From contig NZ_LN885086.1 in the NCBI RefSeq assembly GCF_001458695.1, forward strand, positions 690,001 to 722,000: a stretch of DNA of 32,000 bases. The letters are read 5' to 3'. A program made the translations under genes and the position numbers. Positions 1 to 24,338 of the stretch are shown here, piece by piece (the stretch's first letter is position 1; each line of letters begins with the position of its first letter). The notes beneath the pieces were generated by a model. The model ran no database searches, was not told where the DNA came from, and saw only the letters and a program-made list of their open reading frames with translations. The stretch comes from Candidatus Nitrospira inopinata. GTDB lineage: Bacteria > Nitrospirota > Nitrospiria > Nitrospirales > Nitrospiraceae.

Positions 1-599
1 CAGTCATAACGTTTGGCCTCCTCGTTCAGACACAGATTTTTTATGAGACAAAGACAACAAGGCAAAGAACAGAGAAGAGAAAGAACTTGTTCGCGAAAGA
101 ATGTGCTGGACCACGGCCATCCAGGTGCTGTTTATCGTGTTGTTTATCGCAGTCGACGGGAATCTCTTTCGGCGCGGAACTGACACCGCTCTGCTTTGAT
201 CTCCAGCCGAATGTTTATAACGATTCGAGCGGGATTTTTCAAGAGACCTTGCTTCCTCCTGCACCTTACCCCACAAACTCCGAGATGCGCCGCCGACTGA
301 CCATATCTGCAACCATCTTACTACCTGTCGGGCGAAGAGGGAACCCTCCCTCCCGTAAAAAACGAGAGCCGGCCCCGCCGAGAAACATTGCTCGTCAGGT
401 AAAGGAAACGCGAGGCTCCTCTCCGAGATGGCAACCGACCCAAAAAGGACGCCTCGGAGATGAGCGGGGTTTCCCATTCAGAGAAGAGGGGCAAGAAAAT
501 GCGCCGCCACGGGGTCTCGTTAAATTCAACGTCGGCGTGTAACGGAGGCTTATCCCTTCCTCCTTACGGCCGCCTATCATACCCTTCATCTCGCTTTTC

Positions 600-1037
600 T
601 TATGTTCCGTCGTCTTTCATGGCGGCGAGATGCTTCATCGCTTCTCGTGCCGCGGCGCGAGCCTTGATCGCAGGGTTCAGGCTGGCTCCCGGGTCCACCT
701 TATCACCCATTTCTTCGACCCGTTTACAATGTTTGATGGCTTCCTCCAAATGCGGCGCGGCCTCCCTGCCTTGACTATTGCCGGCAGGCAACAGTTTGAG
801 GATGGCCTGAGCTTGCCTGGACACTTCGGCGCAATGATGCAGAATAGCCCTCCCGTCACCCATTCCGCCGTGCATCACCATTTCCTCGGCGTCTCTTACC
901 ATCGCCTGGCCTTGTTCTTGAATCTGCTTGATGGAGGCCGCGTGAACGGGCGCAGTCCCCATGACCAGCCAACCCAACAGCATGAATACAAAGAACTTTG
1001 GGGAGACCTTCCTTTTCATCATCGCCTGCTTGCTCAC
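600..1037 (-). CDS. small secreted His/Cys/Met-rich helical protein, SmbP-like putative metal-binding protein
   Basis: 145-aa ORF. The GTG start at 1037 overlaps the upstream stop as GTGA (1034-1037); an alternative ATG lies at 1022. Signal peptide KRKVSPKFFVFMLLGWLVMGTAPVHA/AS. The mature part is helical, with repeated His/Cys spacing (ILHHCAEV, HLEEAIKHCK) and a Met/His patch (MVMHGGMGDG), reminiscent of small metal-binding proteins. Confidence 0.6.
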   Translation of the reverse strand: MSKQAMMKRKVSPKFFVFMLLGWLVMGTAPVHAASIKQIQEQGQAMVRDAEEMVMHGGMGDGRAILHHCAEVSRQAQAILKLLPAGNSQGREAAPHLEEAIKHCKRVEEMGDKVDPGASLNPAIKARAAAREAMKHLAAMKDDGT

Positions 1038-1804
1038 CTCGTCTCAAACACAAATTCGATCGCGGCCGTCCCCTTCGGTCCGACCGTCACGTCTTGTTCC
1101 CGAGCGCCCAGCGCCGGATGCCAGGCCTTGATACGGTAGGTGCCGGCCGGCAAATCGTCAATTATGAACGAGCCGGTCTCGCCGGTCACCGCATAATACG
1201 GATTGTCGATCGCATAGCCCCAGTTCTGCATATAGGGATGCATACCGCACTGCATGGTGAAGACCTTTCGGCCCTTGACAAGATTTACGACGTCCGTCGT
1301 GCCGGTCGCCTTCAGCGACGGCCTATGCAGAACAATGTCCACGCCCGATTGATCGTAGGCGTACCCCTGAATGTCGTGCGACACGGGATCTCGATTTGTG
1401 ACGGTCAACTGCCGTTTATCGCTGACGACCGTGACAAACGGTAAAAACTGGCAGACGACGGCCTCCACTTTGGCGTCCGTAAAGGTAAACGGCTTGCCGC
1501 TCTGGACTCCTTCTATCACGACCACAACGTCCTTGAGTCCCCCGCCTTGCCCGACCTGGACCTCCGTCATGAACCGCCGCCCGTTTCCATCCGACAACGC
1601 GCCGCAAAACACCTGGTCAGGATACCGGCGCAGCTCGAATTCCTTGGGCGGCGGAATCGCGCCTTGAAATGTGACGGTTCCTCGCACAGTGGCGCCGTCG
1701 GTCACAGTTCGCGATTCATAGGCCCAACTGTATTCATCTTGCGAGAGCCCTGCCGTGAACACCCAGGCAATCAGGCCGACTCCCATCATGGTGGATCGTT
1801 TCAC
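1034..1804 (-). CDS. secreted type-1 (blue) copper cupredoxin-domain protein with C-terminal carboxypeptidase-regulatory-like beta-sandwich
   Basis: 256-aa ORF. GTG start with GGAGGAGG Shine-Dalgarno about 7 nt upstream, and a GTGA overlap with the upstream stop (1801-1804). Signal peptide MMGVGLIAWVFTAGLS. Blue-copper ligand pattern H143 ... C186-G-M-H189-P-Y-M192 (nt 1229-1249), the same C-x2-H-x2-M spacing as amicyanin. The C-terminal GSFIIDDLPAGTYRIKAWHP...VTVGPKGTAAIEFVF is typical of CarboxypepD_reg-like domains. Confidence 0.75.
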   Translation of the reverse strand: MKRSTMMGVGLIAWVFTAGLSQDEYSWAYESRTVTDGATVRGTVTFQGAIPPPKEFELRRYPDQVFCGALSDGNGRRFMTEVQVGQGGGLKDVVVVIEGVQSGKPFTFTDAKVEAVVCQFLPFVTVVSDKRQLTVTNRDPVSHDIQGYAYDQSGVDIVLHRPSLKATGTTDVVNLVKGRKVFTMQCGMHPYMQNWGYAIDNPYYAVTGETGSFIIDDLPAGTYRIKAWHPALGAREQDVTVGPKGTAAIEFVFETR

Positions 1805-2415
1805 TGTTGTTCCTCCTCCGAATGTTGGCCGCCAGAAGACGGCGCTTGCATGGACTCCCGCGGAACCGCCGGGTCGAGTCGCTGGGGAAGCTCAAACAGG
1901 TAGGGCGACTGTTCGGTAAAGACGACTCTGCGGAACTCTTCCGACCACTGCCCCTGCTTGCTCACCGTCTTCAGGGGGAACCGTTGCGCCTTCGTCACCC
2001 AACGGTAGTATTGTCTGACGGTTCCGTCCTCTTTGACGGTGACCTCGAAGAGTTCCGTGGGATGTCCTTGCAGTGTTTCGTCTCCCACAAATTCGCGCGA
2101 AATTTCCCCTTCCATGGTCTCGCTGACCACCAGCTTATGGTCGCTCGCGATCGGCACCTCGAGGTATAGCCGCCGTTTGGAGAAAATAAGCCATGAACTT
2201 CGGCGGTCCATCCTCACGATAATGACGCTGGCCCCCCCCTGCGGATAGCTGAACTCAAACCGCCAGCGATCGGCCTTGGCGTTGACATGGGCCGTGACCA
2301 CGGACGTTCCGTTTTTGACGATCCGGTCGGCTGAAAAATCAAGCGCCGCCACCTCATCGGTCAACGCGCCACAGGCGATCGACACCAGTCCGACGAAAAT
2401 CCTTACAAGCCGCAT
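1801..2415 (-). CDS. exported LolA-like / DUF4412-like protein
   Basis: The ORF is open to 2577, but its first 54 codons are Pro/Arg-rich and look non-coding. ATG at 2415 begins a signal-like segment MRLVRIFVGLVSIACGAL. I found no clear SD, so the start is uncertain. The body (ADRWRFEF...VIIVRMDRRSSWLIF...LYLEVP...VGDETLQGHPTELFEV...FELPQ) has the look of LolA-fold periplasmic proteins. The stop overlaps the next start. Confidence 0.55.
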   Translation of the reverse strand: MRLVRIFVGLVSIACGALTDEVAALDFSADRIVKNGTSVVTAHVNAKADRWRFEFSYPQGGASVIIVRMDRRSSWLIFSKRRLYLEVPIASDHKLVVSETMEGEISREFVGDETLQGHPTELFEVTVKEDGTVRQYYRWVTKAQRFPLKTVSKQGQWSEEFRRVVFTEQSPYLFELPQRLDPAVPRESMQAPSSGGQHSEEEQQ

Positions 2416-2603: not shown

Positions 2604-5600
2604 TCAGTCGGCCTTCATAGATACAGGAAGGGACTGAACCGGACTCTCTTCTTCAGCCCGTTGTACGGCCGGTACTTGCCCGTCCAACGGCAAGATCGCC
2701 CGACTATCCCGATCCAGAACCTTCAGCATTCCCCAGTGTCCGGCATCCAGATACCCCGGACGTTGGTTAAGCCATAGATAGTCTCCGGGAATTCCGTTCG
2801 GCCCTCCGGCTCCACCGTGCAGCCAGGCATTGAAGACCTCGGCCCCACCGAACTCCATGGTGCTCACGAGATCCGCGCCGCTCATGTAGGGCTCATGTTT
2901 CCACTCATGGCCCGACACGCTGAACAGTTGAACCTGCTCGCTGAACGCGCCCAGCACGTGGATCACCACCGGATCGCCCACGTGCGCCACAATGGTCGGC
3001 GTCACCGGCTGATCACCGGCCTTGACGCAGGCGAACACTTCGCTGTAGGCGCACCCCTTCTCGGTTCGGTAATCCGTCGGCTCCGACCGATAATTCACCG
3101 CGGTCACGCCCGCCACCTTTTGGATGTATGGCATGAAGCTCGTGCCGCTGATGTTGTCCTCGTCCTGGAACAGGAGCGCAAAGGACCGGTAGTTCCGCCG
3201 GTTCTCGTTGCCCGGCACGGTCCGATCGACGATCACGTCCGCCCGCCAGGAACTCTTCTGAGCCAGGTCTTCGCCGCTCACCGGATCCCGGTATCGCGAC
3301 CCCTTCGGGCCGATCACGATCGCGCCAAAGAGCCCATTGCGGGGGTTTTCGATCACATTGCCCCAATCCTGAATCAGAGCGACATTCTCCCCGAATTCCG
3401 GATGGGCATAGAAGGTATAGGTCCGGCTTTGCCCCGGCGCGACCGTTTGGTCGCCGGGATTATACCCGGCATTGATCCCCATCGATTCCTTGGGATCGTA
3501 GGCCAGATTGTCCACGTGGAACCCGGCGCGATCCTTGGCCATTTCGTTTCTCAAATTGACCTTGATGCAATCGCCGACGTTCACGTGCAGGGTCAGCGGG
3601 CTCGGCTCAAGACTGCCAGCCGCGACCTTGGCCTTTTCGCCTTCGAGCACGTACATCTTGCCGCTTTCGTTGCCCAACAACATCTTCCGCTCCAAGTCGA
3701 CCTCCATGACGCCGGGCGCTCCCTTGTTGTAGCGGATCGCCTTGTCGATGGCCGTCACGTTGAAGGTCTTCACCGGCGCGTCGGCGGGACACACGGACGT
3801 GGCCGCCTGCGGAATTTCATCCCGCCCCGGCAGCGGCTTCAAGGTGGGGTCCGGTTTGTCAAGCACACGGAAGATACCCCAACTCCCCTCCGCGAAGTGC
3901 GACGCGCGACCGCTGTAGTACAGATAATCGCCTGCCATCCGTTGCGGTCCGCCGGCGGCCGGAATCGCCGCGTCGTACCGTTCCCCAATCACCACATGGA
4001 GCGTGCTCCTCGGAATCGAGTTTTTGCTGTAGCGCTCCATCGGGAACCAGTGTCCGCTGATATGCCAGGAGTGCACCTCGTTCGCCGATCCTTCAATCAA
4101 CCGCACGACGACCGGATCACCCAGATACGCCCGTAGGATCGGCGTCTCGGGATCTCCGTGAATCCGGCTGTTGAACAGTTGCGACGGATCGGGATTGTTC
4201 GCCAACCTGACGGACAGCGGCTCCACGCGCATGTTGTAGCCGCCTCCCGTCGTCGCTTCGCCGCCGTTGAGGAACCACATCGGCGACTTATTCAGCTTGG
4301 CCGGATAGACCGCGGAAGGAGTGCCGTCCACGGAAATCGCTCCGACCTTCGCCTGCGGGTTATCGGCCGTGATCAACTCCGCCGCCCGCGGATTGGAATC
4401 CATGACCTGCGTCACGATCTCGCGGAACGAACCGGAGATGTGGGCGGACACCGGTTCGGTAGTATGGATGTCGGCCACCGGACCGCTGCGGATTTCCTTG
4501 CCCGTCACCGGATCATGATACGTGGACCGCGGCGGCTCGGCGATGAAGGTCGAGTAAAACCCATGCCCCCACCCGTCCAATCCGAACACGTGGTCATGCC
4601 AGAACGTCGTGCCGAAATCGGCGTCCACGTACCACCGTTCGCGAATCCATTCCACCGACACGATCTCGCCCTTCTTGTGGTGATATTTCAACGGGCGCTC
4701 GAAGGTGATCGTGTTCCCCTCGATCTTGCTGATACGAGCCGCTTCAAATCGGCCCACCTCGTCCATCCCCACGCCCAGTTCGGTTTTGACGTGGTAGCGC
4801 GAAGCGTCTTTCACCTTGATGCTGGTGGCCCCCTTCTGCACGTCGGCCTCGATGGTCGTATTCATCGGGACCGGCATCCCTTTGCCCGGGTGCTCGTCCT
4901 TCAAAATGGTGAAGGGCCGCAGCGACATCTCATAGGAGAACCCGATGATGGGACCGTCGGATGCCTGCGTATCGAATTGGAACATGTGCGGGTGCAGATT
5001 CGTCTTGCTCGAGAACCCTTGCCGCTGGTCGTCCTTCAACTCGCTGGAGTACAGGACGTCGATGCAATCCTGCACGTTCCCGCGAATCACCAACGGCATC
5101 TGCTTGGCGGGATTCTTCCTGACTTCCTCCTCCTCTTCGTGCAGCACGTAGAGCAACCCGTCCGGATCCACGATGGCCGGCGTCTTGGCCGTCGCCTTCT
5201 TGAGCGTGATCGGGAGCGTGATCGCGTGAATATTGAACTCCTTGATCGGCGCCCCTTCCGGACAAAGACTCCACGGTCCGTTCTCACCCGGCTTGGCCGG
5301 CTCGGTGGAATTACTGCCGTCGTCGCGGCGATGAATCGGCTCCAACCACGGCGCCCCGCTGTGACTCGGCGAGAACGGCACGCGACGGCCGAGGTGCGGC
5401 CTCAACCAAGGCCAGGCGACCTTGCCGCTCCGAGGATCGAAGAGAATATCCTGCCGTTTCCCCGGCGTCGCCGACTTGTAGTTGACCCATTCATAGGTGG
5501 TCTCCGGTTCGCTGAGCGCCTTGTTCCCCTGCCAGGCCCAGTCGTTCACCGTTGCGTCATAGGCCAGCGTCTGCTCCTTCTCGGTGTTCTTGTGGCCCGG

Positions 5601-7367
5601 TTTGCCCTGTGGCGGCAACTGCATTTCCACCCAATCCTTCAAGGACACTTTCACCGGATTGGCTTTCCAGTCGGTCTTATCCTTCGTAATCTCGAACTTC
5701 TTGCCGCCGTACCAATCGACCGTGGTGCCCACGAGCTTGTCGCTGGAAACGCCCGGCTTCATGCGCCCGATTCGATCCGGCAATTCGGCCAGGGGCTTCA
5801 TCACATCGGTCTGGTACCCCGGCGCCTGCAACGTGTTGTACACGCGCCAGAACCCCCACATGCCCGTCACATAGTGCTGCGGGATATGGCAATGAAACAC
5901 GAATTCCCCCGCCAGGGCTTGGAGACCTCCCGATCCCCCTTCGATCACCTGGTCATAGACTTCCGTCGGTCCGATGGACTGCACGTCCAACCGATCCGAC
6001 GAATCGCTGATCAAGGGGAACTTCACCGGACCGTTCTTGGACACCGCGAAGTCGAGATTGCTGATACCGGGCTGGCGAGCCCAACGAATCGATCCACCGT
6101 GCAGATGGTGCGAGTGGACGATCTCCGACCCGCCCGCCATGCGGAACTTGGCCGGGTCGCCGAGATACGAACGTGGGATCGTCGTGGCAGGATCGCCGAA
6201 CGTATAGGAACCGTAGGCCATGGACTCATCGCCATAGAACCCCATATGGGCCTGCAACTCGATGCGCGTCCCATGGGGTTCGCTGCGATAATTGAGCAGC
6301 CGGGCTCCCGGCCGATAGGAATCGGTGTGCGGGTCCCGCTGCGGCAACATTTCGCCGTTCTTGTTCAACAACCGGAAGGCTTCGTCGCCGGCCTCATGAT
6401 AGAAAATGGCGAATTCCCGGAAATCCGGTCCGTTGGGATCTTCGATCATCGCCTCCCAGCCGCTCGCCATCGGCTTCCCGTCGAACGGGCTCAAGTACCG
6501 AGATCCGCGCGGTTCGACGACCAGCATGCCGATCAGACCCAAATTGAATTGCTCACGCGATGCGTGGGATCGGAAGAAGCGCGCTCCTTCCTGCGTATCC
6601 GGCTTGATATACCATTCGAACCGTTGCTGATTCCCGGGCGCCACGGTCGCCTCCGGATTCGACGGAGTGGCCGGCTTGCCGGTGGCGCTCACGACCATCG
6701 ACGACCCGTTGATCACGAGATTCGTCGGTTCGCCGTCAAGCTCGTTATGGAGAGTCAGCTTGAGACAGTCGCCCTGGTTCGCCCGAATCACGAGCGGCTG
6801 AATGACGTCGCCTTGCAACCCGTTCGACACCGCACCGGGGTCATTTTCCTTTTCCCGCGCTTCTCTGTTTGCGGTTTCCTCCGCGCGCGCTTTTTCGACG
6901 TTCTCCTTCAGCACGTACATATAGCCTGGGAAAAAGTCGAGAAACCGATTCAACGTGATTTCGATATTGATGGCCGAAACGTGATACTCCTTCACCGGCG
7001 CGTTCGCCGGACACCGATGCCCGGCGCCCACGGCGACCTTGTCCGGGTCTTCCGCCACCAACAGCACACCTTGCTGCATCATGTGATTGTCGGCGCCGGC
7101 GCTGTACCCGCCTTTCTGCCGCACGAACTCTTGCTGGCGCTTCACCTCCTCCATCATGCGGTCGTGCAGAATGCCTCCCCCTTCCCGATAAATCACCTTC
7201 TCCGCCTGCGCCGTGCCCGCATCACCATGCCCCTTGTGTGACTGATCCGCAGCCGGCGCCTGCGGCGGAACCATCAAGCCCATACCGGCCGCCAACAGCA
7301 GGCTGCGGAACAGCGCCGTCCCGCTTCTTTGTCGCCTGCGGCGTGGTTCACATCCCCTTGACCTCAT
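2604..7367 (-). CDS. giant six-cupredoxin-domain multicopper oxidase (MnxG/MofA size class), exported
   Basis: 1587-aa ORF. ATG with GGGAGGAGG SD about 7 nt upstream. Arg-rich signal RRRRQRSGTALFRSLLLAAGMGLMVPPQAPAA. Canonical MCO ligand motifs: HSHHLH (nt 6099-6116), HCHIPQHYVTGM (nt 5859-5894), HPH (nt 4986-4994) and WHDH (nt 4590-4598). Three-fold internal repeat, each unit opening with CPxxAP[VI]Kx[YF] at aa 119, 702 and 1193. Confidence 0.93.
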   Translation of the reverse strand: MRSRGCEPRRRRQRSGTALFRSLLLAAGMGLMVPPQAPAADQSHKGHGDAGTAQAEKVIYREGGGILHDRMMEEVKRQQEFVRQKGGYSAGADNHMMQQGVLLVAEDPDKVAVGAGHRCPANAPVKEYHVSAINIEITLNRFLDFFPGYMYVLKENVEKARAEETANREAREKENDPGAVSNGLQGDVIQPLVIRANQGDCLKLTLHNELDGEPTNLVINGSSMVVSATGKPATPSNPEATVAPGNQQRFEWYIKPDTQEGARFFRSHASREQFNLGLIGMLVVEPRGSRYLSPFDGKPMASGWEAMIEDPNGPDFREFAIFYHEAGDEAFRLLNKNGEMLPQRDPHTDSYRPGARLLNYRSEPHGTRIELQAHMGFYGDESMAYGSYTFGDPATTIPRSYLGDPAKFRMAGGSEIVHSHHLHGGSIRWARQPGISNLDFAVSKNGPVKFPLISDSSDRLDVQSIGPTEVYDQVIEGGSGGLQALAGEFVFHCHIPQHYVTGMWGFWRVYNTLQAPGYQTDVMKPLAELPDRIGRMKPGVSSDKLVGTTVDWYGGKKFEITKDKTDWKANPVKVSLKDWVEMQLPPQGKPGHKNTEKEQTLAYDATVNDWAWQGNKALSEPETTYEWVNYKSATPGKRQDILFDPRSGKVAWPWLRPHLGRRVPFSPSHSGAPWLEPIHRRDDGSNSTEPAKPGENGPWSLCPEGAPIKEFNIHAITLPITLKKATAKTPAIVDPDGLLYVLHEEEEEVRKNPAKQMPLVIRGNVQDCIDVLYSSELKDDQRQGFSSKTNLHPHMFQFDTQASDGPIIGFSYEMSLRPFTILKDEHPGKGMPVPMNTTIEADVQKGATSIKVKDASRYHVKTELGVGMDEVGRFEAARISKIEGNTITFERPLKYHHKKGEIVSVEWIRERWYVDADFGTTFWHDHVFGLDGWGHGFYSTFIAEPPRSTYHDPVTGKEIRSGPVADIHTTEPVSAHISGSFREIVTQVMDSNPRAAELITADNPQAKVGAISVDGTPSAVYPAKLNKSPMWFLNGGEATTGGGYNMRVEPLSVRLANNPDPSQLFNSRIHGDPETPILRAYLGDPVVVRLIEGSANEVHSWHISGHWFPMERYSKNSIPRSTLHVVIGERYDAAIPAAGGPQRMAGDYLYYSGRASHFAEGSWGIFRVLDKPDPTLKPLPGRDEIPQAATSVCPADAPVKTFNVTAIDKAIRYNKGAPGVMEVDLERKMLLGNESGKMYVLEGEKAKVAAGSLEPSPLTLHVNVGDCIKVNLRNEMAKDRAGFHVDNLAYDPKESMGINAGYNPGDQTVAPGQSRTYTFYAHPEFGENVALIQDWGNVIENPRNGLFGAIVIGPKGSRYRDPVSGEDLAQKSSWRADVIVDRTVPGNENRRNYRSFALLFQDEDNISGTSFMPYIQKVAGVTAVNYRSEPTDYRTEKGCAYSEVFACVKAGDQPVTPTIVAHVGDPVVIHVLGAFSEQVQLFSVSGHEWKHEPYMSGADLVSTMEFGGAEVFNAWLHGGAGGPNGIPGDYLWLNQRPGYLDAGHWGMLKVLDRDSRAILPLDGQVPAVQRAEEESPVQSLPVSMKAD

Positions 7368-7621: not shown

Positions 7622-7637
7622 AGCAACTGGCATGCCG
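7622..7637 (-). promoter_or_regulatory. candidate sigma-54 (-24/-12) promoter of the oxidase operon
   Basis: The minus strand reads CGGCATGCCAGTTGCT, against the consensus TGGCACG-N4-TTGCW. GG and GC have exact 10-nt spacing, and GGCA, G7 and TTGCT match. It sits about 255 nt upstream of the ATG at 7367. Confidence 0.45.
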
Positions 7638-8009: not shown

Positions 8010-8483
8010 TCAGGGGTGCAGGCGGGGACACCACTCGACTTCAGCGTGACAAGCCAACTCGGCGAACGAGCTCCGTTGATCGCGAGGTCGCACAAGACAT
8101 GCGGAACAGATCAACCAGCAGGGAGAGGCACAGGAGCGATCGGTGCATGACCCGTCGTCCCTCACGATCATCGCCTGCCGACGGCAATAACTCTCGCTTG
8201 AAACGCGGAAACTCTGGCCATAGCAGAGGAGACTCTCATAGAAGGAGGCGCGGTTGACGATCGGCCTTCCGTCGAGCGCGATTCGGACGTCTCGCAGATC
8301 ATCCGCTTCGGATAGCAGCCGGGCGACGGCCTCGACCGACTTCGGAAAATCATTAAAGACCGCGATGTACAACGCCCCTTCCTCATCACTCTCCACCCAA
8401 TAGGCAGCCGCTGTTCTCATCCACCGCAGCAGCGCCGGAGCACGGGCCACCCGCGCTTCGGAAATTGCCACAGATAGACGCAT
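8010..8483 (-). CDS. hypothetical protein with Cys-rich C-terminal half
   Basis: 157-aa ORF. ATG is preceded by GAGGTGAG with 6-nt spacing and lies 3 nt after the stop of the oxygenase gene (TGAGCCATG). All 9 Cys are in the last 71 residues (C87, 100, 113, 118, 122, 126, 129, 145, 152). I recognise no family. Confidence 0.55.
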   Translation of the reverse strand: MRLSVAISEARVARAPALLRWMRTAAAYWVESDEEGALYIAVFNDFPKSVEAVARLLSEADDLRDVRIALDGRPIVNRASFYESLLCYGQSFRVSSESYCRRQAMIVRDDGSCTDRSCASPCWLICSACLVRPRDQRSSFAELACHAEVEWCPRLHP

Positions 8484-8486
8484 GGC

Positions 8487-9239
8487 TCACCTCGATTTGG
8501 CTCGCGGCATGAATACGGCGGGACCGAAGTAGGCAAACGCATCCTTCATGTTTGAAAACAGCTTGTTCAACGGTCCCATCCGTCGGTCGGTGACGTACTG
8601 CAATGTCAAGACGACCCGCCGCTCATGGGCCCCCAACGGCGTCACCGCGTGCCAGAGTTTGTCGCCGTTGAAGACCACCATCGTTCCCGGCTCCATCGCA
8701 ATGCGCGTTTCGCTGATCTCGGGCGGAGCCGTCCCCTTGCGCACGCGGGCCACTAACCGGCAGTGTTCGGACTGTTCCACCAATCCAATCAACACTGTAT
8801 AGCGGGCGCCTTTGTAATAAGAGGTGTCGTAGTGAAAACCGATGTGGTCACCCGGTTTCGTGTAGTAATACAAGGCGCAGGAATGCGGATCATCCTCCGG
8901 ACACCACTCGATACGCTCTCCTCCGATCAATTGATTCAAGAACGACCGAAGCGCTTCCGAACGATAGAGGGCGAGAATTCCCGGTGCCTTCTGCCGGATC
9001 ATGTAATAACTCACGCTCCCGCCCTGTTTATGTCCGGGGACATAGTTCCGATGAATGTCGCCCTCCAGCCGTTCGACTTCTCGCACACACCGTTCGACCA
9101 CCGGCTGAGGAATGAATCGCTCAAGCCGAACGAACTCATTCTGCTCCTCGTACAGCCGATGAAGAAATGACGGATCGGCTGCTTCGGTTGCTGCACGAAG
9201 ATGCTCTTCGATCTCTATCGTGGTCTCCGTTCGCGGCAT
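8487..9239 (-). CDS. Fe(II)/2-oxoglutarate-dependent oxygenase (prolyl-hydroxylase-like)
   Basis: ATG at 9239 (MPRTETTIEIEE...) has a purine-rich SD (AGAAGGAGAAAAGGGA) upstream. The 39 codons above it in the ORF track are Arg/Gly/Lys-rich and likely non-coding. Facial-triad pattern HIGFHYD (H-x-D) ... LWHAV, and distal RRVVLTLQY, as in the 2OG-Fe(II) oxygenase superfamily. Confidence 0.8.
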   Translation of the reverse strand: MPRTETTIEIEEHLRAATEAADPSFLHRLYEEQNEFVRLERFIPQPVVERCVREVERLEGDIHRNYVPGHKQGGSVSYYMIRQKAPGILALYRSEALRSFLNQLIGGERIEWCPEDDPHSCALYYYTKPGDHIGFHYDTSYYKGARYTVLIGLVEQSEHCRLVARVRKGTAPPEISETRIAMEPGTMVVFNGDKLWHAVTPLGAHERRVVLTLQYVTDRRMGPLNKLFSNMKDAFAYFGPAVFMPRAKSR

Positions 9240-9371
9240 CGCTATCCCTTTTCTCCTTCTCCATCCCTTTTCTCCGCGGGGCTTGCTTGCCCACCTCGAT
9301 AACACCCTGGAACCGGAAGCCATCCTTTTGCCCTTTGTTTCCCGTCCAGCGCCCATCGAGCAGGCCGTCGG

Positions 9372-10548: not shown

Positions 10549-11979
10549 TTACTCGATGCCGTAGGCGCGCAGCTTGTTGTACAGACTTGCTCGGCTGATC
10601 TTGAGCAACTTGGCCGCCTTGGCCCGGTTGCCGCCGGTTTTCTTGAGCGTGTCGACGATGCGGGCCCGCTCGGTCTGGGCGATCACCCCGCGGGTCGCCG
10701 AACGCAAGTCTTCCCCTTCGTCAGGGGCATCAAGGATGATAAGATCGTCGCAGTCGATCGCCGACCCGGCGGTCGTCACGACGGCCCGTTCGATGTAGTG
10801 TTGCAGCTCCCTCACGTTTCCGGGCCATGCGGCTTTGCTCAACGCCTGCTTCGCCCGATCCGACAACGTGCGGACCGGTTGCTGATGCCTTCGGCACGAG
10901 CGGGCGATGAAGTGTTCCGCCAGCAGGGGGATGTCTTCCCTTCGATCGCGGAGCGGAGGCACATAGAGCGGCAAGACCGCCAGACGATAATACAAGTCCT
11001 GTCGAAACGCCTTTTCTTTGACAAGATCCGTGAGATCTCTATTGGTCGCGGAAATGACCCGCACGTCGACCTTGATCGGCTTGGTCCCGCCGACGGGCCT
11101 GATCTCACCCTCTTGCAGCACGCGCAGCAACTTGGCCTGAAACACCGGCGTGGTGTCGGCGATTTCGTCAAGAAAAATTGTCCCCGAGTCGGCTTCCTCA
11201 AATAAGCCCCGTTTATTCGCCACCGCGCCGGTAAAGGCGCCCTTCACGTGGCCGAACAACTCGCTTTCCAGCAGCGTTTCCGGCAGAGCGCCGCAGTCAA
11301 CGACGATGAAGGGTTTGTCTTTCCTCCGGCTCAAAGCGTGAATCGTTTTCGCGAGCAGTTCTTTGCCCGTTCCACTTTCCCCCTGGATCAGCACCGTCGC
11401 CGAGCTTTCCGCCACAAGGGCCACCATGTCGAAGAGCCGCTGCATGGCCGGACTCCGACCGATCAACTCCCCCAGCGAGTCTCGCGCCCCCGGCCCGCTC
11501 TCCTGCTCGGGGGAAACCTGACCGCTCGCCGTCCGCTCGCGCTCGTCCTTGAACAGCACCAACATCGAACCGACGTCGCCCTCGCCGGTGACAAGCGGAA
11601 ACGCTTGGTGCATCCCGCAGGCCGTTCCATCGCCTCCGATGGAACAAGAGACCGACCGCACGTCCGGCGCCTCGAACACCTTGATCGCCGGACAGGTCCC
11701 GCACGGGTCGGATCGATGGGCGAAGGCTTCGTAGCACTTGGCCCGCTGGCTCTCCGATTCCTTGGCCGCCGCGGACGACCACGCCGGCCCGTTCGCGTAC
11801 ACCACGTTAAAATGGCGGTCCATGACCGCCACGCGATCGGTCAACCCGCCGGCGAGTTGGGTGATCGCCTCAAGCCGCGCCAAGAGGATAGGATCGCGAA
11901 ACGGTGGAACGTGCCCTTGCTCCCCCGAGTCCCCCTCCTTGGCTGAATGACGGTGCCAGACCGGTTGCTCGCTACTCAT
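10549..11979 (-). CDS. sigma-54-dependent transcriptional activator with N-terminal Cys-rich PAS-like sensor
   Basis: 476 aa. AAA+ core with Walker A GESGTGKE and the sigma-54 contact loop GAFTGA. C-terminal Fis-type HTH ([21 protein letters not shown]). The N-terminal roughly 150 aa has no receiver Asp pocket but carries five Cys (C82, C93, C96, C112, C121). Confidence 0.92.
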
Positions 11980-12046: not shown

Positions 12047-12436
12047 TCATGATCCTTGGTGATTTAACAGTCGTTGCACACAGGCTTTCAACTCCGAGAT
12101 GCGTACCGGCTTGTTAAAATAGGCATTGGCGCCAGCCCTCAAGACGTCCTGCTCGGCCCGCGCGTCACCGAACGCCGTCATTACGATGATGGGACACCGG
12201 GGAGCGATCGTCCTCAACCGACTGATATAGTCCGGCCCTCCGGCCGGCATGCGGAGGTCGGTGAGGATCACATCCGGCACGGACTCCATCACCATCCGAA
12301 AGGCTTCATCGCCGTCCCTCGCCTGCCGCAACTGATAGTCGGAGCCCCAAAATTCGTCACAGAGCAGACTGAGCATCTCTCGGTCATCCTCGACGATCAG
12401 CATGACGGCTACCCTTCCTCTTGTCACGGTCGCCAT
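12047..12436 (-). CDS. single-domain response regulator receiver (CheY-like)
   Basis: 129 aa. MLIVEDDREML ... DVILTDLRMP ... IIVMTAFGD ... AGANAYFNKP is the classic REC signature. SD GGAAGGTAGG lies upstream of ATG 12436; an alternative ATG at 12403 has AGAGGAAGGG. Confidence 0.88.
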   Translation of the reverse strand: MATVTRGRVAVMLIVEDDREMLSLLCDEFWGSDYQLRQARDGDEAFRMVMESVPDVILTDLRMPAGGPDYISRLRTIAPRCPIIVMTAFGDARAEQDVLRAGANAYFNKPVRISELKACVQRLLNHQGS

Positions 12437-12483
12437 CCCCGCAATCCTACCTTCCGTATCTGTGGCGCTTAAAATTAGGATCT

Positions 12484-12499
12484 GGCAAGGGATATGCCG
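12484..12499 (-). promoter_or_regulatory. candidate sigma-54 (-24/-12) promoter of the receiver / enhancer-binding-protein operon
   Basis: The minus strand reads CGGCATATCCCTTGCC. It has the same CGGCAT...TTGC architecture as the oxidase promoter, with exact GG-N10-GC spacing. It is about 50 nt upstream of the receiver start codon. Confidence 0.4.
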
Positions 12500-12774
12500 A
12501 CCGGGAGCGAAGAAGAACCTTCAAAATTACGGCCGGTTTTCTCTAGAGACCAACTCGGCGGTCCGTCGCTGGAGACAAAGGCGACAATCCGAGAGGACCC
12601 GCTGACGCGTCATGCCACAGTGCCAAGAGGCGACGCCGCGCGCGCTCCGACCGCCGGCCGGGTCATGATTGTCGGTCCATCGACCGGGTGGCGGCGCCGG
12701 GCGGTGTATCCAGATATCAGCCCGCAGTCTATCCAGTATTAACTTCCCATGGGCGGGCCGGTCGGAGGAGATCA

Positions 12775-13089
12775 TCACCGACCAGCCGAGGTCGCCACGC
12801 CACTTCCCCCTCTGTTGAGCACAGAAGGCTGGACCATCGTGGTACGGACATCCTTGTGTCCGAGGAGTTCTTAGATCGTCCTGATATCGTGGCCATCTTC
12901 AAGGAGATGAGTCCCGAACGAATGGCGGAGCATGTGGCAGCTCGCCGGCTTGGCGAGCCCGGCTTTCTTGACCGCCTGCTTCACCGCCTTCTTCGGGACG
13001 GCCTCTTGGAGGTGGTACTTCCATGTCGTTTGAGGCGGAAACTGCGATCGATGAAGAGCGTCGAGGTCTTTCCGACCCGCAGCGTCGGT
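12775..13089 (-). pseudogene. C-terminal fragment of an integron-integrase-like tyrosine recombinase (inactivated)
   Basis: My own translation of the minus strand gives [81 protein letters not shown]. It matches the HxLRHSFATHLLExGxDIRT[IV]QELLGHxDVxTTMIYTHVLxxGGxGVxSP box of IntI/Xer recombinases. There is an in-frame TAA where Gln is expected, and the catalytic IYTH is replaced by VQPS. The N-terminal roughly 200 aa are absent. Confidence 0.75.
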
Positions 13090-13150
13090 CTAACGACAAA
13101 ACTGAGCGCCCCGGCGGTCGTCGTGGTTTGCTTCAGTGGGATGGTTAGCT
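13088..13150 (-). repeat. attC-like imperfect palindrome at the 3' end of the brnTA pair
   Basis: The minus strand reads AGCTAAC ... GTTAGAC. The second core fits GTTRRRY and the first fits RYYYAAC with one mismatch. Predicted fold: R-box C90-C94/G44-G48 (5 bp); an unpaired 6x6 spacer; an L-box of 13101-13107 with 13030-13037 equivalents (ACTGA+GC paired with GC-T-TCAGT, one bulged T); and a G+C-rich terminal loop. Total length is 63 nt. Confidence 0.3.
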
Positions 13151-13381
13151 TGCTTTCCTTGTTTCCTCTTTCAACCGCTCGGCAATCCAAAGTTTGATAA
13201 CCGATTGTCTCGTCACTCCAAGGCGGCTCGCCTGGGCATCCAGTGATTCGATCATCCAACTGGGGAAATCGACATTCACACGTCTCTGTTCATGTCCTGG
13301 GCGGCGGGCTTTCGAGAGGGTCAGGTGAGGTGTAATATCCTTCCTGTCATCAAACATCTTATCGAGATCCTTGGCTTTCAT
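13145..13381 (-). CDS. brnA: ribbon-helix-helix antitoxin of BrnT/BrnA-type toxin-antitoxin pair
   Basis: 78 aa. RRVNVDFPSWMIESLDAQASRLGVTRQSVIKLWIAERL is the CopG/RHH signature found next to DUF497 toxins. It overlaps the toxin gene by 23 nt. Confidence 0.8.
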   Translation of the reverse strand: MKAKDLDKMFDDRKDITPHLTLSKARRPGHEQRRVNVDFPSWMIESLDAQASRLGVTRQSVIKLWIAERLKEETRKAS

Positions 13382-13634
13382 AGTACAGTTTCCTCTCTTC
13401 TTTTCTGGCTCTTCGGACTGAAATCAACCGAATGCGTCCCTTCCGATAAGTAAAAAAGGCCGACCACAACTTCTGCCCGAGAGCCGCAATGACAACATAT
13501 CTGGGTTCGTCTTCGGTTCGCGCCGGGATTTCGAGCCGGTCCTCGTCTTCCCACAGAAGTTGCGCCTCCACGAAATCGATTCCGTGCTTTTCGAAGTTGG
13601 CCTGGCTCTTCGAAGCATCAAACTCAAAATCCAT
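13359..13634 (-). CDS. brnT: BrnT-family (DUF497) ribonuclease toxin
   Basis: 91 aa. FEFDASKSQANFEKHGIDFVEAQLLWED ... RIRLISVRRARKEERKLY matches the DUF497/BrnT pattern (FEWDxxKxxxNxxKHGxxFxEA ... iRiISaRxAxxxEr). An AT-rich palindromic region (TATATATTTCCTATA) lies immediately upstream. Confidence 0.85.
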   Translation of the reverse strand: MDFEFDASKSQANFEKHGIDFVEAQLLWEDEDRLEIPARTEDEPRYVVIAALGQKLWSAFFTYRKGRIRLISVRRARKEERKLYYESQGSR

Positions 13635-14039
13635 GGTGGTATAGGAAATATATAGATATGGATCTGCATGTCAACTAAGCAAGGAGTCGGTCGGCATGGC
13701 ATCCGCCCCTTCTTGCGTAGATTTGGTCAGCTATCTCGACTGCCCTCACCTCTCCACATTTTCTGCCAGGCTACAGCGAGGTCCCTCTCTGAACGGATGT
13801 TATCGCTGTCTTCCGGCAAATGGAATGTCAAGGAGTGGCGCGACGGCTGGCGGCTTGCAGAGATTGGCGGTCCAGCTTTCTCGACTACCTCCCTCCATAC
13901 CTTCTGGGGGGATGAATCCTTGGAATGGCACTCCCCGTTGGCTGAGGTTGAAACTCCATTACCAGCCTCCATCCTTCACAGCATCCTGTGGGCCGGCGGC
14001 TGACGCGAGCACGACGCCGACCGGCTCTTTCTGATCCCG

Positions 14040-15947: not shown

Positions 15948-16002
15948 CCCGGCCTGATTCGGAGCAGGCGGCCCCGCTCCTCTAGATGGTCAGAGGCGGT
16001 CC

Positions 16003-17382: not shown

Positions 17383-17453
17383 CACCTTCTCCGTCTGCTA
17401 CAGGGCCATTCCTCTCTAGTGGAGACTCATCTTGTTGTCCCAAACTGCAACGG

Positions 17454-23841: not shown

Positions 23842-24306
23842 GTGAATCAACCGACCACACATGTTTCCCAGACCGAGACCGCGCAGGTCCGTTGGGAACA
23901 TTTTCCCCATCAAGCCGACATGGGCGTGAGGGGGATCGGGCCAACCAAGGAAGCGGCCTTTGAACAGGCGGCGATGGCCTTGACCGCTGTGATCACGAAC
24001 CCGGAATCGGTCAGGCCAGTGGAGGCCGTCTCCATCACGTGCGACGCGCCCGACGATGAACTGTTGCTGGTCGATTGGCTGAATGCCCTGGTCTATGAAA
24101 TGGCGACAAGGAACATGCTGTTCGGCCGTTTTGCCGTCCAGATTCACGACCATCGCCTTCAGGCCACCGCCTGGGGAGAGCCGGTCGACGTCGCGCGCCA
24201 TCAGCCAGCCGTCGAAGTGAAAGGCGCCACCTACACTGCCTTGTCCGTCAAGGAGGAACAGGAACCAGAAGGCTGCTGGATTGCTCAATGTGTGGTCGAT
24301 GTTTAG
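23842..24306 (+). CDS. archease (RtcB activator)
   Basis: 154 aa with a GTG start. [30 protein letters not shown] ... [11 protein letters not shown] is the conserved archease signature. It sits directly upstream of rtcB. Confidence 0.88.
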
Positions 24307-24338
24307 ATGTCGAATTGTTGAGGAGAGCGAGGGAAGCC

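What the first reader, a model, noticed from the sequence alone, without database searches (positions are those of the whole stretch)
2604..7367. Giant 1587-aa six-domain multicopper oxidase with three-fold internal repeat but only one complete copper-ligand set
Seen in the sequence:
- One exported ORF contains three paralogous modules. Each opens with C-P-x-x-A-P-[VI]-K-x-[YF]-x-[VI]-x-A-I (aa 119, 702, 1193; nt 7013, 5264, 3791) and closes with G-x-W-G-[FIM]-x-[RK]-V (aa ~502, ~1161, ~1543). That implies 3 x 2 cupredoxin domains.
- Only module 1 has the canonical H-C-H-x3-H-x4-M motif (HCHIPQHYVTGM, nt 5859-5894) plus HSHHLH (nt 6099-6116).
- The partner H-x-H pairs are in module 2 (HPH nt 4986-4994, WHDH nt 4590-4598). 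They are separated by about 130 aa rather than the ~40 usual for laccase-type enzymes, implying an inserted ~90-aa domain (aa ~825-905).
- The equivalent sites in the later domains have lost the Cys (HSWHISGHW; HVLGAF...SGHEW).

Established knowledge: bacterial MCOs of this size class (Bacillus MnxG, Leptothrix MofA, Pseudomonas MnxG) are Mn(II) oxidases, and six-domain ceruloplasmin-type enzymes oxidise Fe(II).

Inference: this is a periplasmic metal oxidase (Mn, Fe or Cu) with an unusual domain order. The substrate cannot be read from the sequence.
Basis: partly seen in the sequence, partly recalled or inferred. Interest (0 to 1): 0.75.

Follow-up and report, generated by a model that had tools for sequence, protein, structure and literature searches.

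The report
Nitrospira MnxG-type six-domain copper oxidase
This is a real, exported, 1587-residue copper oxidase of a Nitrospira bacterium, of the same six-domain type as the known bacterial manganese oxidase MnxG; the features that looked odd are normal for that type, the gene has been noted in nitrite oxidisers before, and its substrate is still untested.

Summary
ORF 2604-7367(-) encodes a 1587-aa protein with three significantly related two-domain modules. It has one complete copper-ligand set: T1 plus half the trinuclear cluster in domain 2, and the two H-x-H pairs in domain 3. An ~87-aa insertion lies between those pairs.

The closest solved relative, by sequence (E=1e-103) and by fold (Foldseek E=2e-47), is Bacillus MnxG, the Mn(II) oxidase. 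However, a T1 site only in domain 2 and a cluster between domains 2 and 3 is reported as the rule for bacterial six-domain oxidases, so the domain order is not unusual.

The window comes from Nitrospira, and the best-matching relatives are all Nitrospirota, including Ca. Manganitrophaceae. Published genome papers already describe this MnxG-like oxidase in Nitrospina and Nitrospira.

Found here and not seen in the papers I read:
- A conserved downstream gene (50 of 65 loci) encodes an amicyanin-like blue-copper domain joined to a beta-sandwich.
- An SMBP-like protein follows it.
- A sigma-54-type promoter motif recurs upstream of the oxidase genes.
- A second oxidase paralogue starts at the window edge.
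- The linker domain and the domain-3 insertion are absent from Bacillus MnxG.

The substrate (Mn(II) most likely; Cu(I) or Fe(II) possible) cannot be read from the sequence.

The parts
2604..7367 (-). Complete gene for the 1587-aa MnxG-type six-domain multicopper oxidase (stop codon 2604-2606)
   Evidence: ORF list and translation. Pfam Cu-oxidase_3 and Cu-oxidase_2. PDB 9bxa MnxG E=1e-103. More than 1900 homologues; those that carry a source name are Nitrospirota.
7248..7367 (-). Signal peptide, aa 1-40 (Sec-type; predicted cleavage after A-P-A)
   Evidence: Read directly from the sequence. All homologues have Sec-type N-termini without a conserved twin-arginine motif.
7014..7247 (-). His/Met-rich N-terminal tail of the mature protein, aa 41-118
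   Evidence: In homologues, His clusters (HxH, HxxH, with Met runs) follow the cleavage site directly. The metal-binding role is inferred, not tested.
5811..7013 (-). Module 1 (cupredoxin domains 1-2), aa 119-519; the only module with a T1 site
   Evidence: Aligns with MnxG residues 3-383 at 122.8 bits. Pfam Cu-oxidase_3 at aa 186-287 and Cu-oxidase_2 at aa 400-508.
6099..6116 (-). HSHHLH (aa 418-423): the HxxHxH motif, giving one T1 His and two trinuclear-cluster His
   Evidence: H418, H420, H421 and H423 are invariant in 51 homologues. Aligned with the HVFHYH motif of MnxG.
5859..5894 (-). HCHIPQHYVTGM (aa 492-503): T1 Cys, His and axial Met, plus two T3 His
   Evidence: H492, C493, H494 and M503 are invariant; H498 is conserved in at least 90%. 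Aligned with HCHLYPAFGIGM of the MnxG H340A mutant structure.
5265..5810 (-). Conserved inter-module linker domain, aa 520-701 (about 60 aa in Bacillus MnxG)
   Evidence: Invariant W552, W579, W610, W612, H658 and H669. The model gives an alpha/beta fold with 10-residue block pLDDT 77-91 (one block at 65) for aa ~515-654. No Pfam family.
3792..5264 (-). Module 2 (domains 3-4), aa 702-1192; domain 3 supplies the other half of the trinuclear cluster
   Evidence: Aligns with MnxG 443-803. BLASTP to M1 and M3.
4986..4994 (-). HPH (aa 792-794): first H-x-H pair of the trinuclear cluster
   Evidence: Invariant. Aligned with HIH in the MnxG segment GFHIHFVKFD.
4653..4913 (-). Beta-rich insertion of about 87 aa in domain 3, aa ~819-905, between the two H-x-H pairs
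   Evidence: Absent from MnxG and from modules 1 and 3. Model block pLDDT 70-95. No Pfam family.
4590..4598 (-). HDH (aa 924-926): second H-x-H pair of the trinuclear cluster
   Evidence: Invariant. Aligned with FFHDHLF of MnxG.
2712..3791 (-). Module 3 (domains 5-6), aa 1193-1552; no copper-ligand set
   Evidence: Aligns with MnxG 465-792 (98.5 bits) and 858-1214. All ligand positions are lost.
7622..7637 (-). Sigma-54-type promoter-like element CGGCATGCCAGTTGCT, about 255-270 nt upstream of the start codon
   Evidence: The same motif lies at -150 to -272 upstream of 14 of 82 homologous oxidase genes, against 0.01 expected per 700 nt. Function not tested.
1801..2415 (-). Downstream gene 1: exported protein of about 204 aa, unknown family (the ORF as listed starts at 2577; the probable start is M55)
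   Evidence: Conserved directly downstream in many Nitrospira loci, with matches starting at residues 48-78 of the long ORF. No Pfam, NCBIfam or significant PDB match.
1034..1804 (-). Downstream gene 2: 256-aa protein with an amicyanin-like type-1 copper domain (H143, C186, H189, M192) joined to a CarboxypepD_reg beta-sandwich
   Evidence: Ligands invariant or at least 90% conserved. The profile hits blue-copper protein 5fc9 (E=1.3e-6) and amicyanin (E=2.4e-5), with the four ligand positions aligned to amicyanin. Lies directly downstream of 50 of 65 oxidase genes.
600..1037 (-). Downstream gene 3: 145-aa SMBP-like small metal-binding protein
   Evidence: Pfam SMBP 29.9 bits against a cutoff of 29. 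Weak match to N. europaea SmbP 3u8v. Recurs in many of the loci.
1..7 (-). Start codon (nt 7-5) of a second, tandem oxidase paralogue cut off by the window edge
   Evidence: The window aligns with L020 up to the start of its second oxidase copy, about 70% identical in protein. The reverse complement of the window ends in ...GAGGAGGCCAAACGTTATGACTG, matching MTAS... of that copy.
10549..11979 (-). Sigma-54-dependent transcriptional activator (476 aa), candidate regulator of the oxidase operon
   Evidence: Pfam Sigma54_activat 239 bits plus HTH_8. An activator lies within 2.5 kb upstream of 22 of 59 homologous oxidase genes, including in a Manganitrophus MAG (L003).

Best explanation
The gene encodes the Nitrospira representative of the bacterial six-cupredoxin-domain (MnxG-type) multicopper oxidases.

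Shown:
- It is built from three paralogous two-domain modules.
- It has one catalytic copper set. The T1 ligands H418, C493, H498 and M503, and the cluster ligands H421, H423, H492 and H494, are in domain 2. The cluster ligands H792, H794, H924 and H926 are in domain 3.
- All of these are conserved in 51 Nitrospirota homologues (H498 in at least 90%, the rest invariant). They align with the corresponding motifs of the solved Bacillus Mn(II) oxidase MnxG.

Inferred mechanism:
- After Sec export, the enzyme is loaded with copper in the periplasm. The operon's SMBP-like protein, the blue-copper protein and the His-rich N-terminal tail may help with this.
- It takes single electrons from a reduced metal ion at the T1 site. 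Electrons pass through the Cys-His bridge to the trinuclear cluster at the domain 2/3 interface, where O2 is reduced to water.
- Domains 1 and 4-6 would be copper-free scaffolding that closes the pseudo-threefold ring.

The most likely substrate is Mn(II), oxidised to Mn(III)/Mn(IV), because Bacillus MnxG, the nearest characterised relative found here, oxidises Mn(II). Expression is probably sigma-54 dependent.
For: - Motifs and ligands.
- Internal repeats.
- Homology to MnxG across all modules, with ligand motifs aligned.
- Model of aa 105-1190: best PDB match is 9bxa Mnx (E=2.4e-47, TM 0.53), then ceruloplasmin, factors V and VIII, and two-domain laccases.
- Family rule of T1 in domain 2 and cluster between domains 2 and 3: PMC3600357.
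- Sec signal peptides and His-rich tails in all homologues.
- Conserved copper-protein partners.
- Sigma-54 motif and activator.
- Earlier literature proposing Mn oxidation for this oxidase in Nitrospina and Nitrospira: PMC3578206, PMC9477243 and bioRxiv 2024.12.25.630300.
Against: - No activity has been measured for any member of the Nitrospirota clade.
- The NCBIfam MnxG equivalog model scores 122.8 bits against a cutoff of 3100, and Foldseek sequence identity to Bacillus MnxG is only 22%. Functional transfer is therefore weak.
- A preprint, citing Kurdi et al. 2023, warns that homology predicts function poorly for these oxidases.
- The accessory genes are not MnxE/MnxF.
- The operon context (SMBP-like protein, cupredoxin; CopD-like and RND genes nearby in related loci) fits a copper-handling role equally well.
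- The model is unreliable around the copper sites: pLDDT is 28-59 for the ligand-bearing loops. The interface geometry is inferred from homology.
Confidence: 0.55

Rival explanations
1. Cuprous oxidase or copper-homeostasis enzyme. Working like CueO, PcoA or CopA, it would oxidise periplasmic Cu(I) to Cu(II). The SMBP-like protein and the blue-copper protein would buffer or deliver copper.
For: - An SMBP-like protein is in the operon. By my own recollection, not checked here, SmbP of N. europaea binds copper.
- The N-terminal tail is rich in His and Met.
- CopD-like genes and a CusB/RND efflux system lie near the oxidase in related loci L001-L003.
- Weak NCBIfam similarity to CueO and CopA (E about 2e-3).
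Against: - The known cuprous oxidases are three-domain enzymes. By my own knowledge, they carry a Met-rich segment over the T1 site; nothing of that kind was looked for or noticed near T1 here.
- The nearest homologue by far is MnxG.
- The regulator is a sigma-54 activator, not a CueR-, CusRS- or CopRS-type copper sensor.
- Copper-binding partners are also expected simply because a Sec-exported oxidase must be metallated in the periplasm.
Confidence: 0.2
2. Electron-transfer module. The conserved amicyanin-like protein would be the physiological redox partner of the oxidase. Either it donates respiratory electrons for periplasmic O2 reduction, or it accepts substrate-derived (for example Mn(II)) electrons and passes them to the respiratory chain.
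For: - A T1 cupredoxin gene is translationally coupled in the same operon and lies directly downstream of 50 of 65 oxidase genes, including in Manganitrophaceae.
- The Manganitrophaceae paper notes that an oxidase could serve Mn lithotrophy only if electrons went to a periplasmic carrier rather than to O2 (PMC9040806).
- A Rieske/cytochrome b cluster lies a few kb upstream in L003.
Against: - The trinuclear O2-reducing cluster is fully conserved, so electrons are expected to go to O2.
- No physical or co-evolutionary evidence for an interaction was obtained; the partner model was of low confidence.
- Oxidase copies of about 60% identity, and some second paralogues, lack the partner.
Confidence: 0.1
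3. Ferroxidase. Like ceruloplasmin or Fet3p, it would oxidise Fe(II) to Fe(III) in the periplasm.
For: - Six-domain architecture, with structural similarity to ceruloplasmin (Foldseek E about 6e-16).
- A methionine axial T1 ligand, which by my own knowledge is common in metallo-oxidases.
- Nitrospira MAGs from iron-rich sand filters carry these genes.
Against: - The ceruloplasmin copper layout (T1 in domains 2, 4 and 6; cluster between domains 1 and 6) is not present.
- Sequence identity to ceruloplasmin is only about 10%.
- No iron-transport genes (Ftr1- or EfeU-type) were seen next to the gene.
Confidence: 0.08
4. Laccase-like oxidase acting on organic substrates such as phenols or amines.
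For: Module 1 superposes on two-domain laccases (TM about 0.6 relative to the target). By my own knowledge, multicopper oxidases are often promiscuous.
Against: No characterised six-domain bacterial oxidase known to me acts mainly on organic substrates. The hosts are chemolithoautotrophs. The operon contains metal-binding proteins, not catabolic genes.
Confidence: 0.05

Closest known systems
Bacillus sp. PL-12 MnxG (Mnx complex, PDB 9bxa), Mn(II) oxidase
   Same: - Three two-domain modules, giving six cupredoxin domains.
- A single T1 site and the HxxHxH and HCHxxxHxxxxM motifs in domain 2; two HxH pairs in domain 3, all aligned.
- It is the best structural match.
   Different: - The window protein is 360 aa longer.
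- It has a signal peptide plus a His-rich tail.
- Its inter-module linker is about 180 aa, against about 60 aa in MnxG.
- It has an ~87-aa beta-rich insertion between the two HxH pairs.
- No MnxE/MnxF homologues are present. The operon instead carries a cupredoxin/beta-sandwich protein, an SMBP-like protein and an unknown 204-aa protein.
- It is exported to the periplasm of a Gram-negative-type cell. MnxG, by my own knowledge, sits in the spore outer layers.
Pseudomonas-type MnxG (NCBIfam NF041487 equivalog)
   Same: Seven matching stretches with a total E of 6.5e-36, including the HCH region. Large exported bacterial six-domain oxidase.
   Different: The score of 122.8 bits is far below the equivalog cutoff of 3100, so this is not the same orthologous group.
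MnxG-like periplasmic multicopper oxidase of Nitrospina gracilis and Ca. Nitrospira defluvii (Lucker et al. 2013, PMC3578206); 'two novel MCOs' of Ca. Manganitrophaceae (PMC9040806)
   Same: Probably the same family. The homologues are Nitrospira, Nitrospirota and Manganitrophaceae proteins of 1570-1650 aa and 54-98% identity. The 2013 paper describes a periplasmic oxidase similar to the Mn-oxidising enzyme of Bacillus SG-1 (its MnxG).
   Different: In those genomes the gene is reported inside the NXR / bd-like oxidase cluster. No NXR or bd-like oxidase gene was found in this 32-kb window. Identity with the specific published proteins was not checked directly.
Ceruloplasmin, hephaestin and coagulation factors V and VIII (eukaryotic six-domain proteins)
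   Same: Six cupredoxin domains in a pseudo-threefold arrangement; significant fold similarity.
   Different: In ceruloplasmin the T1 sites are in domains 2, 4 and 6, and the cluster lies between domains 1 and 6. Here T1 is only in domain 2 and the cluster lies between domains 2 and 3. Sequence identity is about 10%.
Amicyanin and other small blue-copper proteins (for the downstream 256-aa gene)
   Same: The His...Cys-x2-His-x2-Met ligand pattern aligns with amicyanin's NREAMPHN and C-x2-HPFM segments. By my own knowledge these hold its ligands His53, Cys92, His95 and Met98. The profile E is 2.4e-5 for amicyanin and 1.3e-6 for blue-copper protein 5fc9.
   Different: The cupredoxin domain appears to sit within, or be fused to, a CarboxypepD_reg/transthyretin-like beta-sandwich. 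No Pfam cupredoxin model reaches threshold. The structure model was of low confidence.

Membership tests
Bacterial six-domain (MnxG-type) multicopper oxidases | Six cupredoxin domains arranged as three homologous two-domain modules | tested here: met
   - Internal repeats, E from 7e-14 to 8e-29.
- Each module aligns with MnxG modules.
- The model of domains 1-4 matches 9bxa, ceruloplasmin and two-domain laccases.
- Domains 5-6 rest on homology only.
Bacterial six-domain (MnxG-type) multicopper oxidases | Single T1 copper site, located in domain 2 | tested here: met
   There is only one HCHxxxHxxxxM motif (aa 492-503), and the Cys is lost at the equivalent positions of modules 2 and 3. The ligands are conserved. 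The family rule is from PMC3600357.
Bacterial six-domain (MnxG-type) multicopper oxidases | Trinuclear-cluster ligands split between domain 2 (HxxHxH, HCH) and domain 3 (two HxH) | tested here: met
   H421, H423, H492 and H494 in domain 2, and H792, H794, H924 and H926 in domain 3, are invariant and align with the MnxG motifs. The three-dimensional geometry is not reliably modelled.
MnxG equivalog (NCBIfam NF041487, Pseudomonas type) | Whole-protein score at or above the curated cutoff (3100 bits) | tested here: not met
   122.8 bits.
Bacillus Mnx complex (MnxG-E3F3) | Co-encoded MnxE and MnxF accessory subunits | tested here: not met
   None of the three downstream proteins matches any chain of 9bxa in sequence searches of the PDB. 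These searches are by sequence only, so distant structural equivalence is not excluded.
Mn(II) oxidases (functional class) | Catalyses Mn(II) to Mn(III)/Mn(IV) with O2 | not testable with these tools
   Requires an enzyme assay.
Ceruloplasmin-type six-domain ferroxidases | T1 sites in domains 2, 4 and 6, and the trinuclear cluster between domains 1 and 6 | tested here: not met
   Domains 4 and 6 lack the Cys. Domain 1 lacks both HxH pairs, retaining a single His, H266, at the second. Domain 6 lacks the HxxHxH and HCH motifs.
CueO/PcoA/CopA cuprous oxidases | Three-domain oxidase reaching the family score | tested here: not met
   The protein has six domains. The NCBIfam scores are 17.1 bits for CueO (cutoff 525) and 16.3 bits for CopA (cutoff 479).
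Type-1 blue-copper proteins (cupredoxins), for the downstream 256-aa protein | His, Cys, His, Met ligand set in a cupredoxin-family sequence context | tested here: met
   H143, C186, H189 and M192 are conserved in at least 90% of 61 relatives of 26-57% identity. The profile aligns them with the corresponding amicyanin positions (E=2.4e-5) and hits 5fc9 at E=1.3e-6. Eight of 61 members hit Pfam Copper-bind weakly.
Type-1 blue-copper proteins (cupredoxins), for the downstream 256-aa protein | Cupredoxin beta-sandwich fold | tested here: inconclusive
   The model has a mean pLDDT of 50.8, too low for a fold search.

The most novel reading that the evidence does not exclude
The oxidase and its conserved, co-transcribed amicyanin-like blue-copper protein form a periplasmic redox pair. 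The pair would connect metal (Mn(II)) oxidation to the respiratory chain, or drain respiratory electrons to O2. It is shared by nitrite-oxidising Nitrospira and the Mn-lithotrophic Ca. Manganitrophaceae. If true, a MnxG-type oxidase would be part of an energy-relevant electron-transfer route and not only a stand-alone O2-reducing oxidase.
Probability: 0.1. Interest if true: 0.8.

Novelty: new member of a known kind. Interest (0 to 1): 0.4.

Why it matters
Nitrospira dominates nitrification in soils, wastewater plants and drinking-water sand filters, where manganese is also removed. The related Nitrospina oxidase is among the most abundant oxidoreductases detected in the mesopelagic ocean proteome (PMC9477243).

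No enzyme of this Nitrospirota clade has been assayed. Possible roles include making Mn oxides, generating Mn(III) for protection against reactive oxygen (the 2013 hypothesis), handling copper, or something else. Which one applies bears on the coupling of the nitrogen and manganese cycles.

The practical value of this analysis is a defined expression unit for testing: the oxidase, a 204-aa protein, a blue-copper protein and an SMBP-like protein, behind a sigma-54-type promoter. It also corrects the idea that the copper-site layout is unusual.

Tried and rejected
Only aa 105-1190 were modelled, so domains 5-6 and the ring closure between modules 1 and 3 were not modelled.
- The model of the 256-aa partner was too poor to use (pLDDT 50.8). 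The cupredoxin assignment therefore rests on a profile built from distant relatives.
- Pfam scans at a permissive E-value found nothing credible for the linker domain, the domain-3 insertion or the 204-aa protein. NCBIfam found nothing for the accessory proteins.
- A Tat signal was considered because of the RRRRQR stretch. I rejected it because the homologues have ordinary Sec-type signal peptides without a conserved twin arginine.
- Across the whole window, the sigma-54 consensus with 2 mismatches is not enriched (18 matches against 13 expected). The site upstream of the oxidase is credited only because a stricter motif recurs at similar offsets in orthologous loci.
- ORF 4..477(-) and the long antisense ORFs 2817-4136(+) and 4158-7241(+) were treated as non-coding. 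The antisense ORFs lie opposite a conserved gene in GC-rich DNA. ORF 4..477 lies in the intergenic region between the SMBP-like gene and the second oxidase copy.
- A literature search for a paper on the 9bxa structure found nothing in the held library. Substrate-site residues of MnxG could therefore not be compared.


Full report
**The observation.** ORF 2604..7367 on the minus strand encodes 1587 aa. A GGAGGAGG ribosome-binding site lies 7 nt upstream of the ATG.
- three C-P-x-x-A-P-[VI]-K module openers (aa 119, 702, 1193);
- three G-x-W-G closers (aa 502, 1161, 1543);
- one HCHIPQHYVTGM (aa 492-503);
- HSHHLH (aa 418-423), HPH (aa 792-794) and HDH (aa 924-926).

BLASTP between the three modules gives E-values of 7.6e-29 (M1-M3), 9e-20 (M2-M3) and 7e-14 (M1-M2), so the three-fold repeat is not chance. 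A three-way alignment shows that the copper-ligand positions are complete only once. Module 2 keeps vestiges (HSWHIS; Cys changed to Ser), and module 3 has lost nearly all of them.

**What the protein is.** Pfam recognises only Cu-oxidase_3 and Cu-oxidase_2 in module 1. A search of all PDB sequences finds Bacillus sp. PL-12 MnxG (9bxa, 1227 aa) at E=1e-103, in seven stretches that cover all three modules. Searching with single modules gives this mapping:

| Module | Best-aligned MnxG residues |
|---|---|
| M1 | 3-383 (domains 1-2) |
| M2 | 443-803 (domains 3-4) |
| M3 | 465-792, and also 858-1214 (domains 5-6) |

The copper motifs align residue for residue:

| This protein | Bacillus MnxG |
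|---|---|
| HSHHLH | HVFHYH |
| HCHIPQHYVTGM | HCHLYPAFGIGM |
| NLHPHMFQFD | GFHIHFVKFD |
| FWHDHVF | FFHDHLF |

The deposited MnxG entry is titled an H340A mutant. That probably explains the Ala where this protein has the T1 His, although my residue count puts the Ala at 339.

A model of aa 105-1190 was built from a 51-sequence alignment. It has mean pLDDT 70.9 and pTM 0.72. Its best PDB match is 9bxa (Foldseek E=2.4e-47, TM 0.53/0.48). Ceruloplasmin, factors V and VIII and the two-domain laccases follow. The model is good for domain 1, the linker, the core of domain 3 and the insertion. It is poor (pLDDT 28-59) for domain 2 and the ligand loops, so the copper-site geometry rests on homology.

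**The copper layout is the family norm.** In 51 homologues of 54-93% identity, H418, H420, H421, H423, H492, C493, H494, M503, H792, H794, H924 and H926 are invariant, and H498 is conserved in at least 90%. That is a full T1 site plus an eight-histidine trinuclear cluster, split between domains 2 and 3. A published comparison of six-domain copper proteins states that all analysed bacterial six-domain oxidases have their only mononuclear site in domain 2. It places the trinuclear site between domains 2 and 3, unlike ceruloplasmin, where it lies between domains 1 and 6 (PMC3600357).

**What differs from Bacillus MnxG.**
- An insertion of about 87 aa (aa ~819-905) lies between the two H-x-H pairs. 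They are 130 aa apart here and about 47 aa apart in MnxG. The insertion is modelled as a confident beta-rich domain (block pLDDT 70-95).
- The linker between modules 1 and 2 is about 180 aa, against about 60 aa in MnxG. It has invariant Trp and His residues, and its first ~135 aa are confidently modelled as a small alpha/beta domain.
- Neither element matches a Pfam family.
- The mature N-terminus is a His/Met-rich tail that follows a Sec-type signal peptide in every homologue. I rejected a Tat signal because the arginine run is not conserved.

**Organism and distribution.** The window is 97.5% identical in DNA to a contig of an uncultured Nitrospira MAG, and about 92-93% identical to two others. 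More than 1900 protein clusters match. At least 589 stretches in species-representative genomes encode relatives. The best 80 are all Nitrospira, Nitrospiraceae, Nitrospirota or Ca. Manganitrophaceae.

**Genomic context.** The gene heads an operon-like row on the minus strand:
- the oxidase (7367-2604);
- a ~204-aa exported protein of unknown family (2415-1801);
- a 256-aa protein (1804-1034, 4-nt overlap with the gene before it);
- a 145-aa SMBP-like protein (1037-600, 4-nt overlap; Pfam 29.9 bits against a cutoff of 29).

The window's left edge cuts the start codon of a second oxidase paralogue about 70% identical to the first. It is present in full in the syntenic loci L001, L002 and L020.

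The 256-aa protein is the most consistent neighbour. It lies directly downstream of 50 of 65 oxidase genes that have enough flanking sequence, including in Manganitrophaceae. Its C-terminus is a CarboxypepD_reg beta-sandwich. Its middle part carries His143, Cys186, His189 and Met192, invariant among close relatives and at least 90% conserved in 61 relatives of 26-57% identity. A profile of those relatives hits a type-1 blue-copper protein (5fc9, E=1.3e-6) and amicyanin (E=2.4e-5). The four residues align with amicyanin's NREAMPHN and C-x2-HPFM segments. By my own knowledge these hold its copper ligands. Eight of the 61 relatives also hit Pfam Copper-bind weakly. The structure model of this protein was unusable (pLDDT 51), so the fold itself is not shown. 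None of the accessory proteins resembles MnxE or MnxF by sequence.

**Regulation.** A sigma-54-type motif (CGGCATGCCAGTTGCT, 7622-7637, minus strand) lies about 255-270 nt upstream of the start codon. The stricter pattern GG[CT]A[CT]-N5-TTGC[AT] occurs at -150 to -272 upstream of 14 of 82 homologous oxidase genes, against 0.01 expected per 700 nt. A sigma-54 activator gene lies upstream here (10549-11979) and within 2.5 kb upstream of 22 of 59 homologous genes. This is suggestive but untested.

**Prior knowledge.**
- Lucker et al. (2013) described a periplasmic multicopper oxidase in Nitrospina gracilis, highly conserved in Ca. Nitrospira defluvii and similar to the Mn-oxidising enzyme of Bacillus SG-1. 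They proposed that it makes Mn(III) for protection against reactive oxygen species (PMC3578206).
- A Pacific metaproteome found the Nitrospina 'MnxG' to be that group's second most abundant oxidoreductase (PMC9477243).
- A 2024 preprint reports mnxG in all its Nitrospira MAGs from sand filters, but warns that homology predicts function poorly.
- All Ca. Manganitrophaceae are reported to carry 'two novel MCOs' (PMC9040806).

**Function.** The shown part is the architecture and the intact four-copper catalytic apparatus. The inferred part is the chemistry: one-electron oxidation of a reduced metal at T1, coupled to four-electron reduction of O2 at the cluster between domains 2 and 3.
- Mn(II) is the most likely substrate, because the nearest characterised relative found here, Bacillus MnxG, oxidises Mn(II). 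But the clade is distant: 22% identity to Bacillus MnxG in the structural alignment, and 122.8 bits against the 3100-bit equivalog cutoff for the Pseudomonas type.
- A copper-handling role is a serious rival, given the SMBP-like and blue-copper partners and the nearby CopD/RND genes in related loci.
- A redox-partner role for the cupredoxin is the most novel reading that the evidence does not exclude.
- Ferroxidase and laccase-like roles are less likely.

**Verdict.** This is a real and correctly described feature: a Nitrospirota member of the known MnxG-type oxidase family. Its 'oddities' are family traits, and its existence in nitrite oxidisers is already published. The remaining interest lies in the untested substrate, the conserved blue-copper partner, and the clade-specific linker and insertion domains.

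Noticed in passing
window 1-7 (-), with 8-599 as the intergenic region: The window's left edge cuts the start codon (nt 7-5, preceded by GAGGAGG) of a second, tandem oxidase paralogue, about 70% identical in protein to the first. Many Nitrospira genomes carry the two giant oxidase genes in tandem, separated by the three accessory genes.
   Followed up: yes
window 1034-1804 (-): The CarboxypepD_reg beta-sandwich appears to be split. Its first strand lies at aa ~38-47 and the remainder at aa 203-252, with the amicyanin-like copper domain (aa ~100-200) between them. That suggests a cupredoxin inserted into a transthyretin-like domain. Two conserved Cys (C67, C118) may form a disulfide.
   Followed up: partly
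window 8010-9356 (-): A HalD/WelO5-like 2-oxoglutarate/Fe(II) oxygenase (289 aa, 8487-9356) is followed by a small Cys-rich protein (157 aa, 8010-8483). The pair recurs in about ten of the related Nitrospira loci, directly upstream of the oxidase in the closest ones and elsewhere in the locus in L046. Whether it modifies the oxidase or belongs to a separate pathway is unknown.
   Followed up: partly
window 7014-7247 (-), and homologues in alignment A1: In all homologues the mature N-terminus begins with a His cluster, often with Met runs (for example AADSDAHQGHAG, EEAHPHEHDMQQMRM, GGADHDHHD). This looks like a conserved metal-capturing tail.
   Followed up: partly
window 5968-5991 (-), aa 460-467 of the oxidase: The motif L-D-x-Q-S-I-x-P just upstream of the T1 loop is shared with Bacillus MnxG (LDVQSIGP against LDAQSISP in the alignment). 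D461 is invariant in the Nitrospirota clade. It is a candidate for part of the substrate site, but this was not tested.
   Followed up: no
window 12047-17385 (-): A regulatory cluster comprises a stand-alone receiver protein (12047-12436), a PAS-PAS histidine kinase (14040-15947) and a second sigma-54-dependent response regulator (16003-17385). Several related loci also carry two sigma-54 activators upstream of the oxidase.
   Followed up: no
window 18953-21664 (-): A 903-aa fusion of an AMP-binding enzyme, a phosphopantetheine carrier domain and an acyltransferase. It may be an Aas-like lysophospholipid acylation enzyme.
   Followed up: no
window 29844-31058 (+): The S-adenosylmethionine synthetase is of the Pfam AdoMet_Synthase family (PF01941, 452 bits). 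By my own knowledge this is the archaeal-type enzyme, not the usual bacterial MetK. It lies next to a radical SAM protein (28643-29806).
   Followed up: no
window 24288-25769 (+): An RtcB RNA ligase (575 bits) without an obvious adjacent RtcA. The NCBIfam RtcR model is among the many sigma-54 activator models that match the activator at 10549-11979.
   Followed up: no
L072, L077, L078, L080 (loci of oxidases about 54-56% identical): In the more distant Nitrospirota and Manganitrophaceae loci, the cupredoxin/beta-sandwich gene is duplicated in tandem after the oxidase. Further paralogues of 30-33% identity lie a few kb downstream, after the SMBP-like gene in L039, L048, L054 and L058.
   Followed up: no
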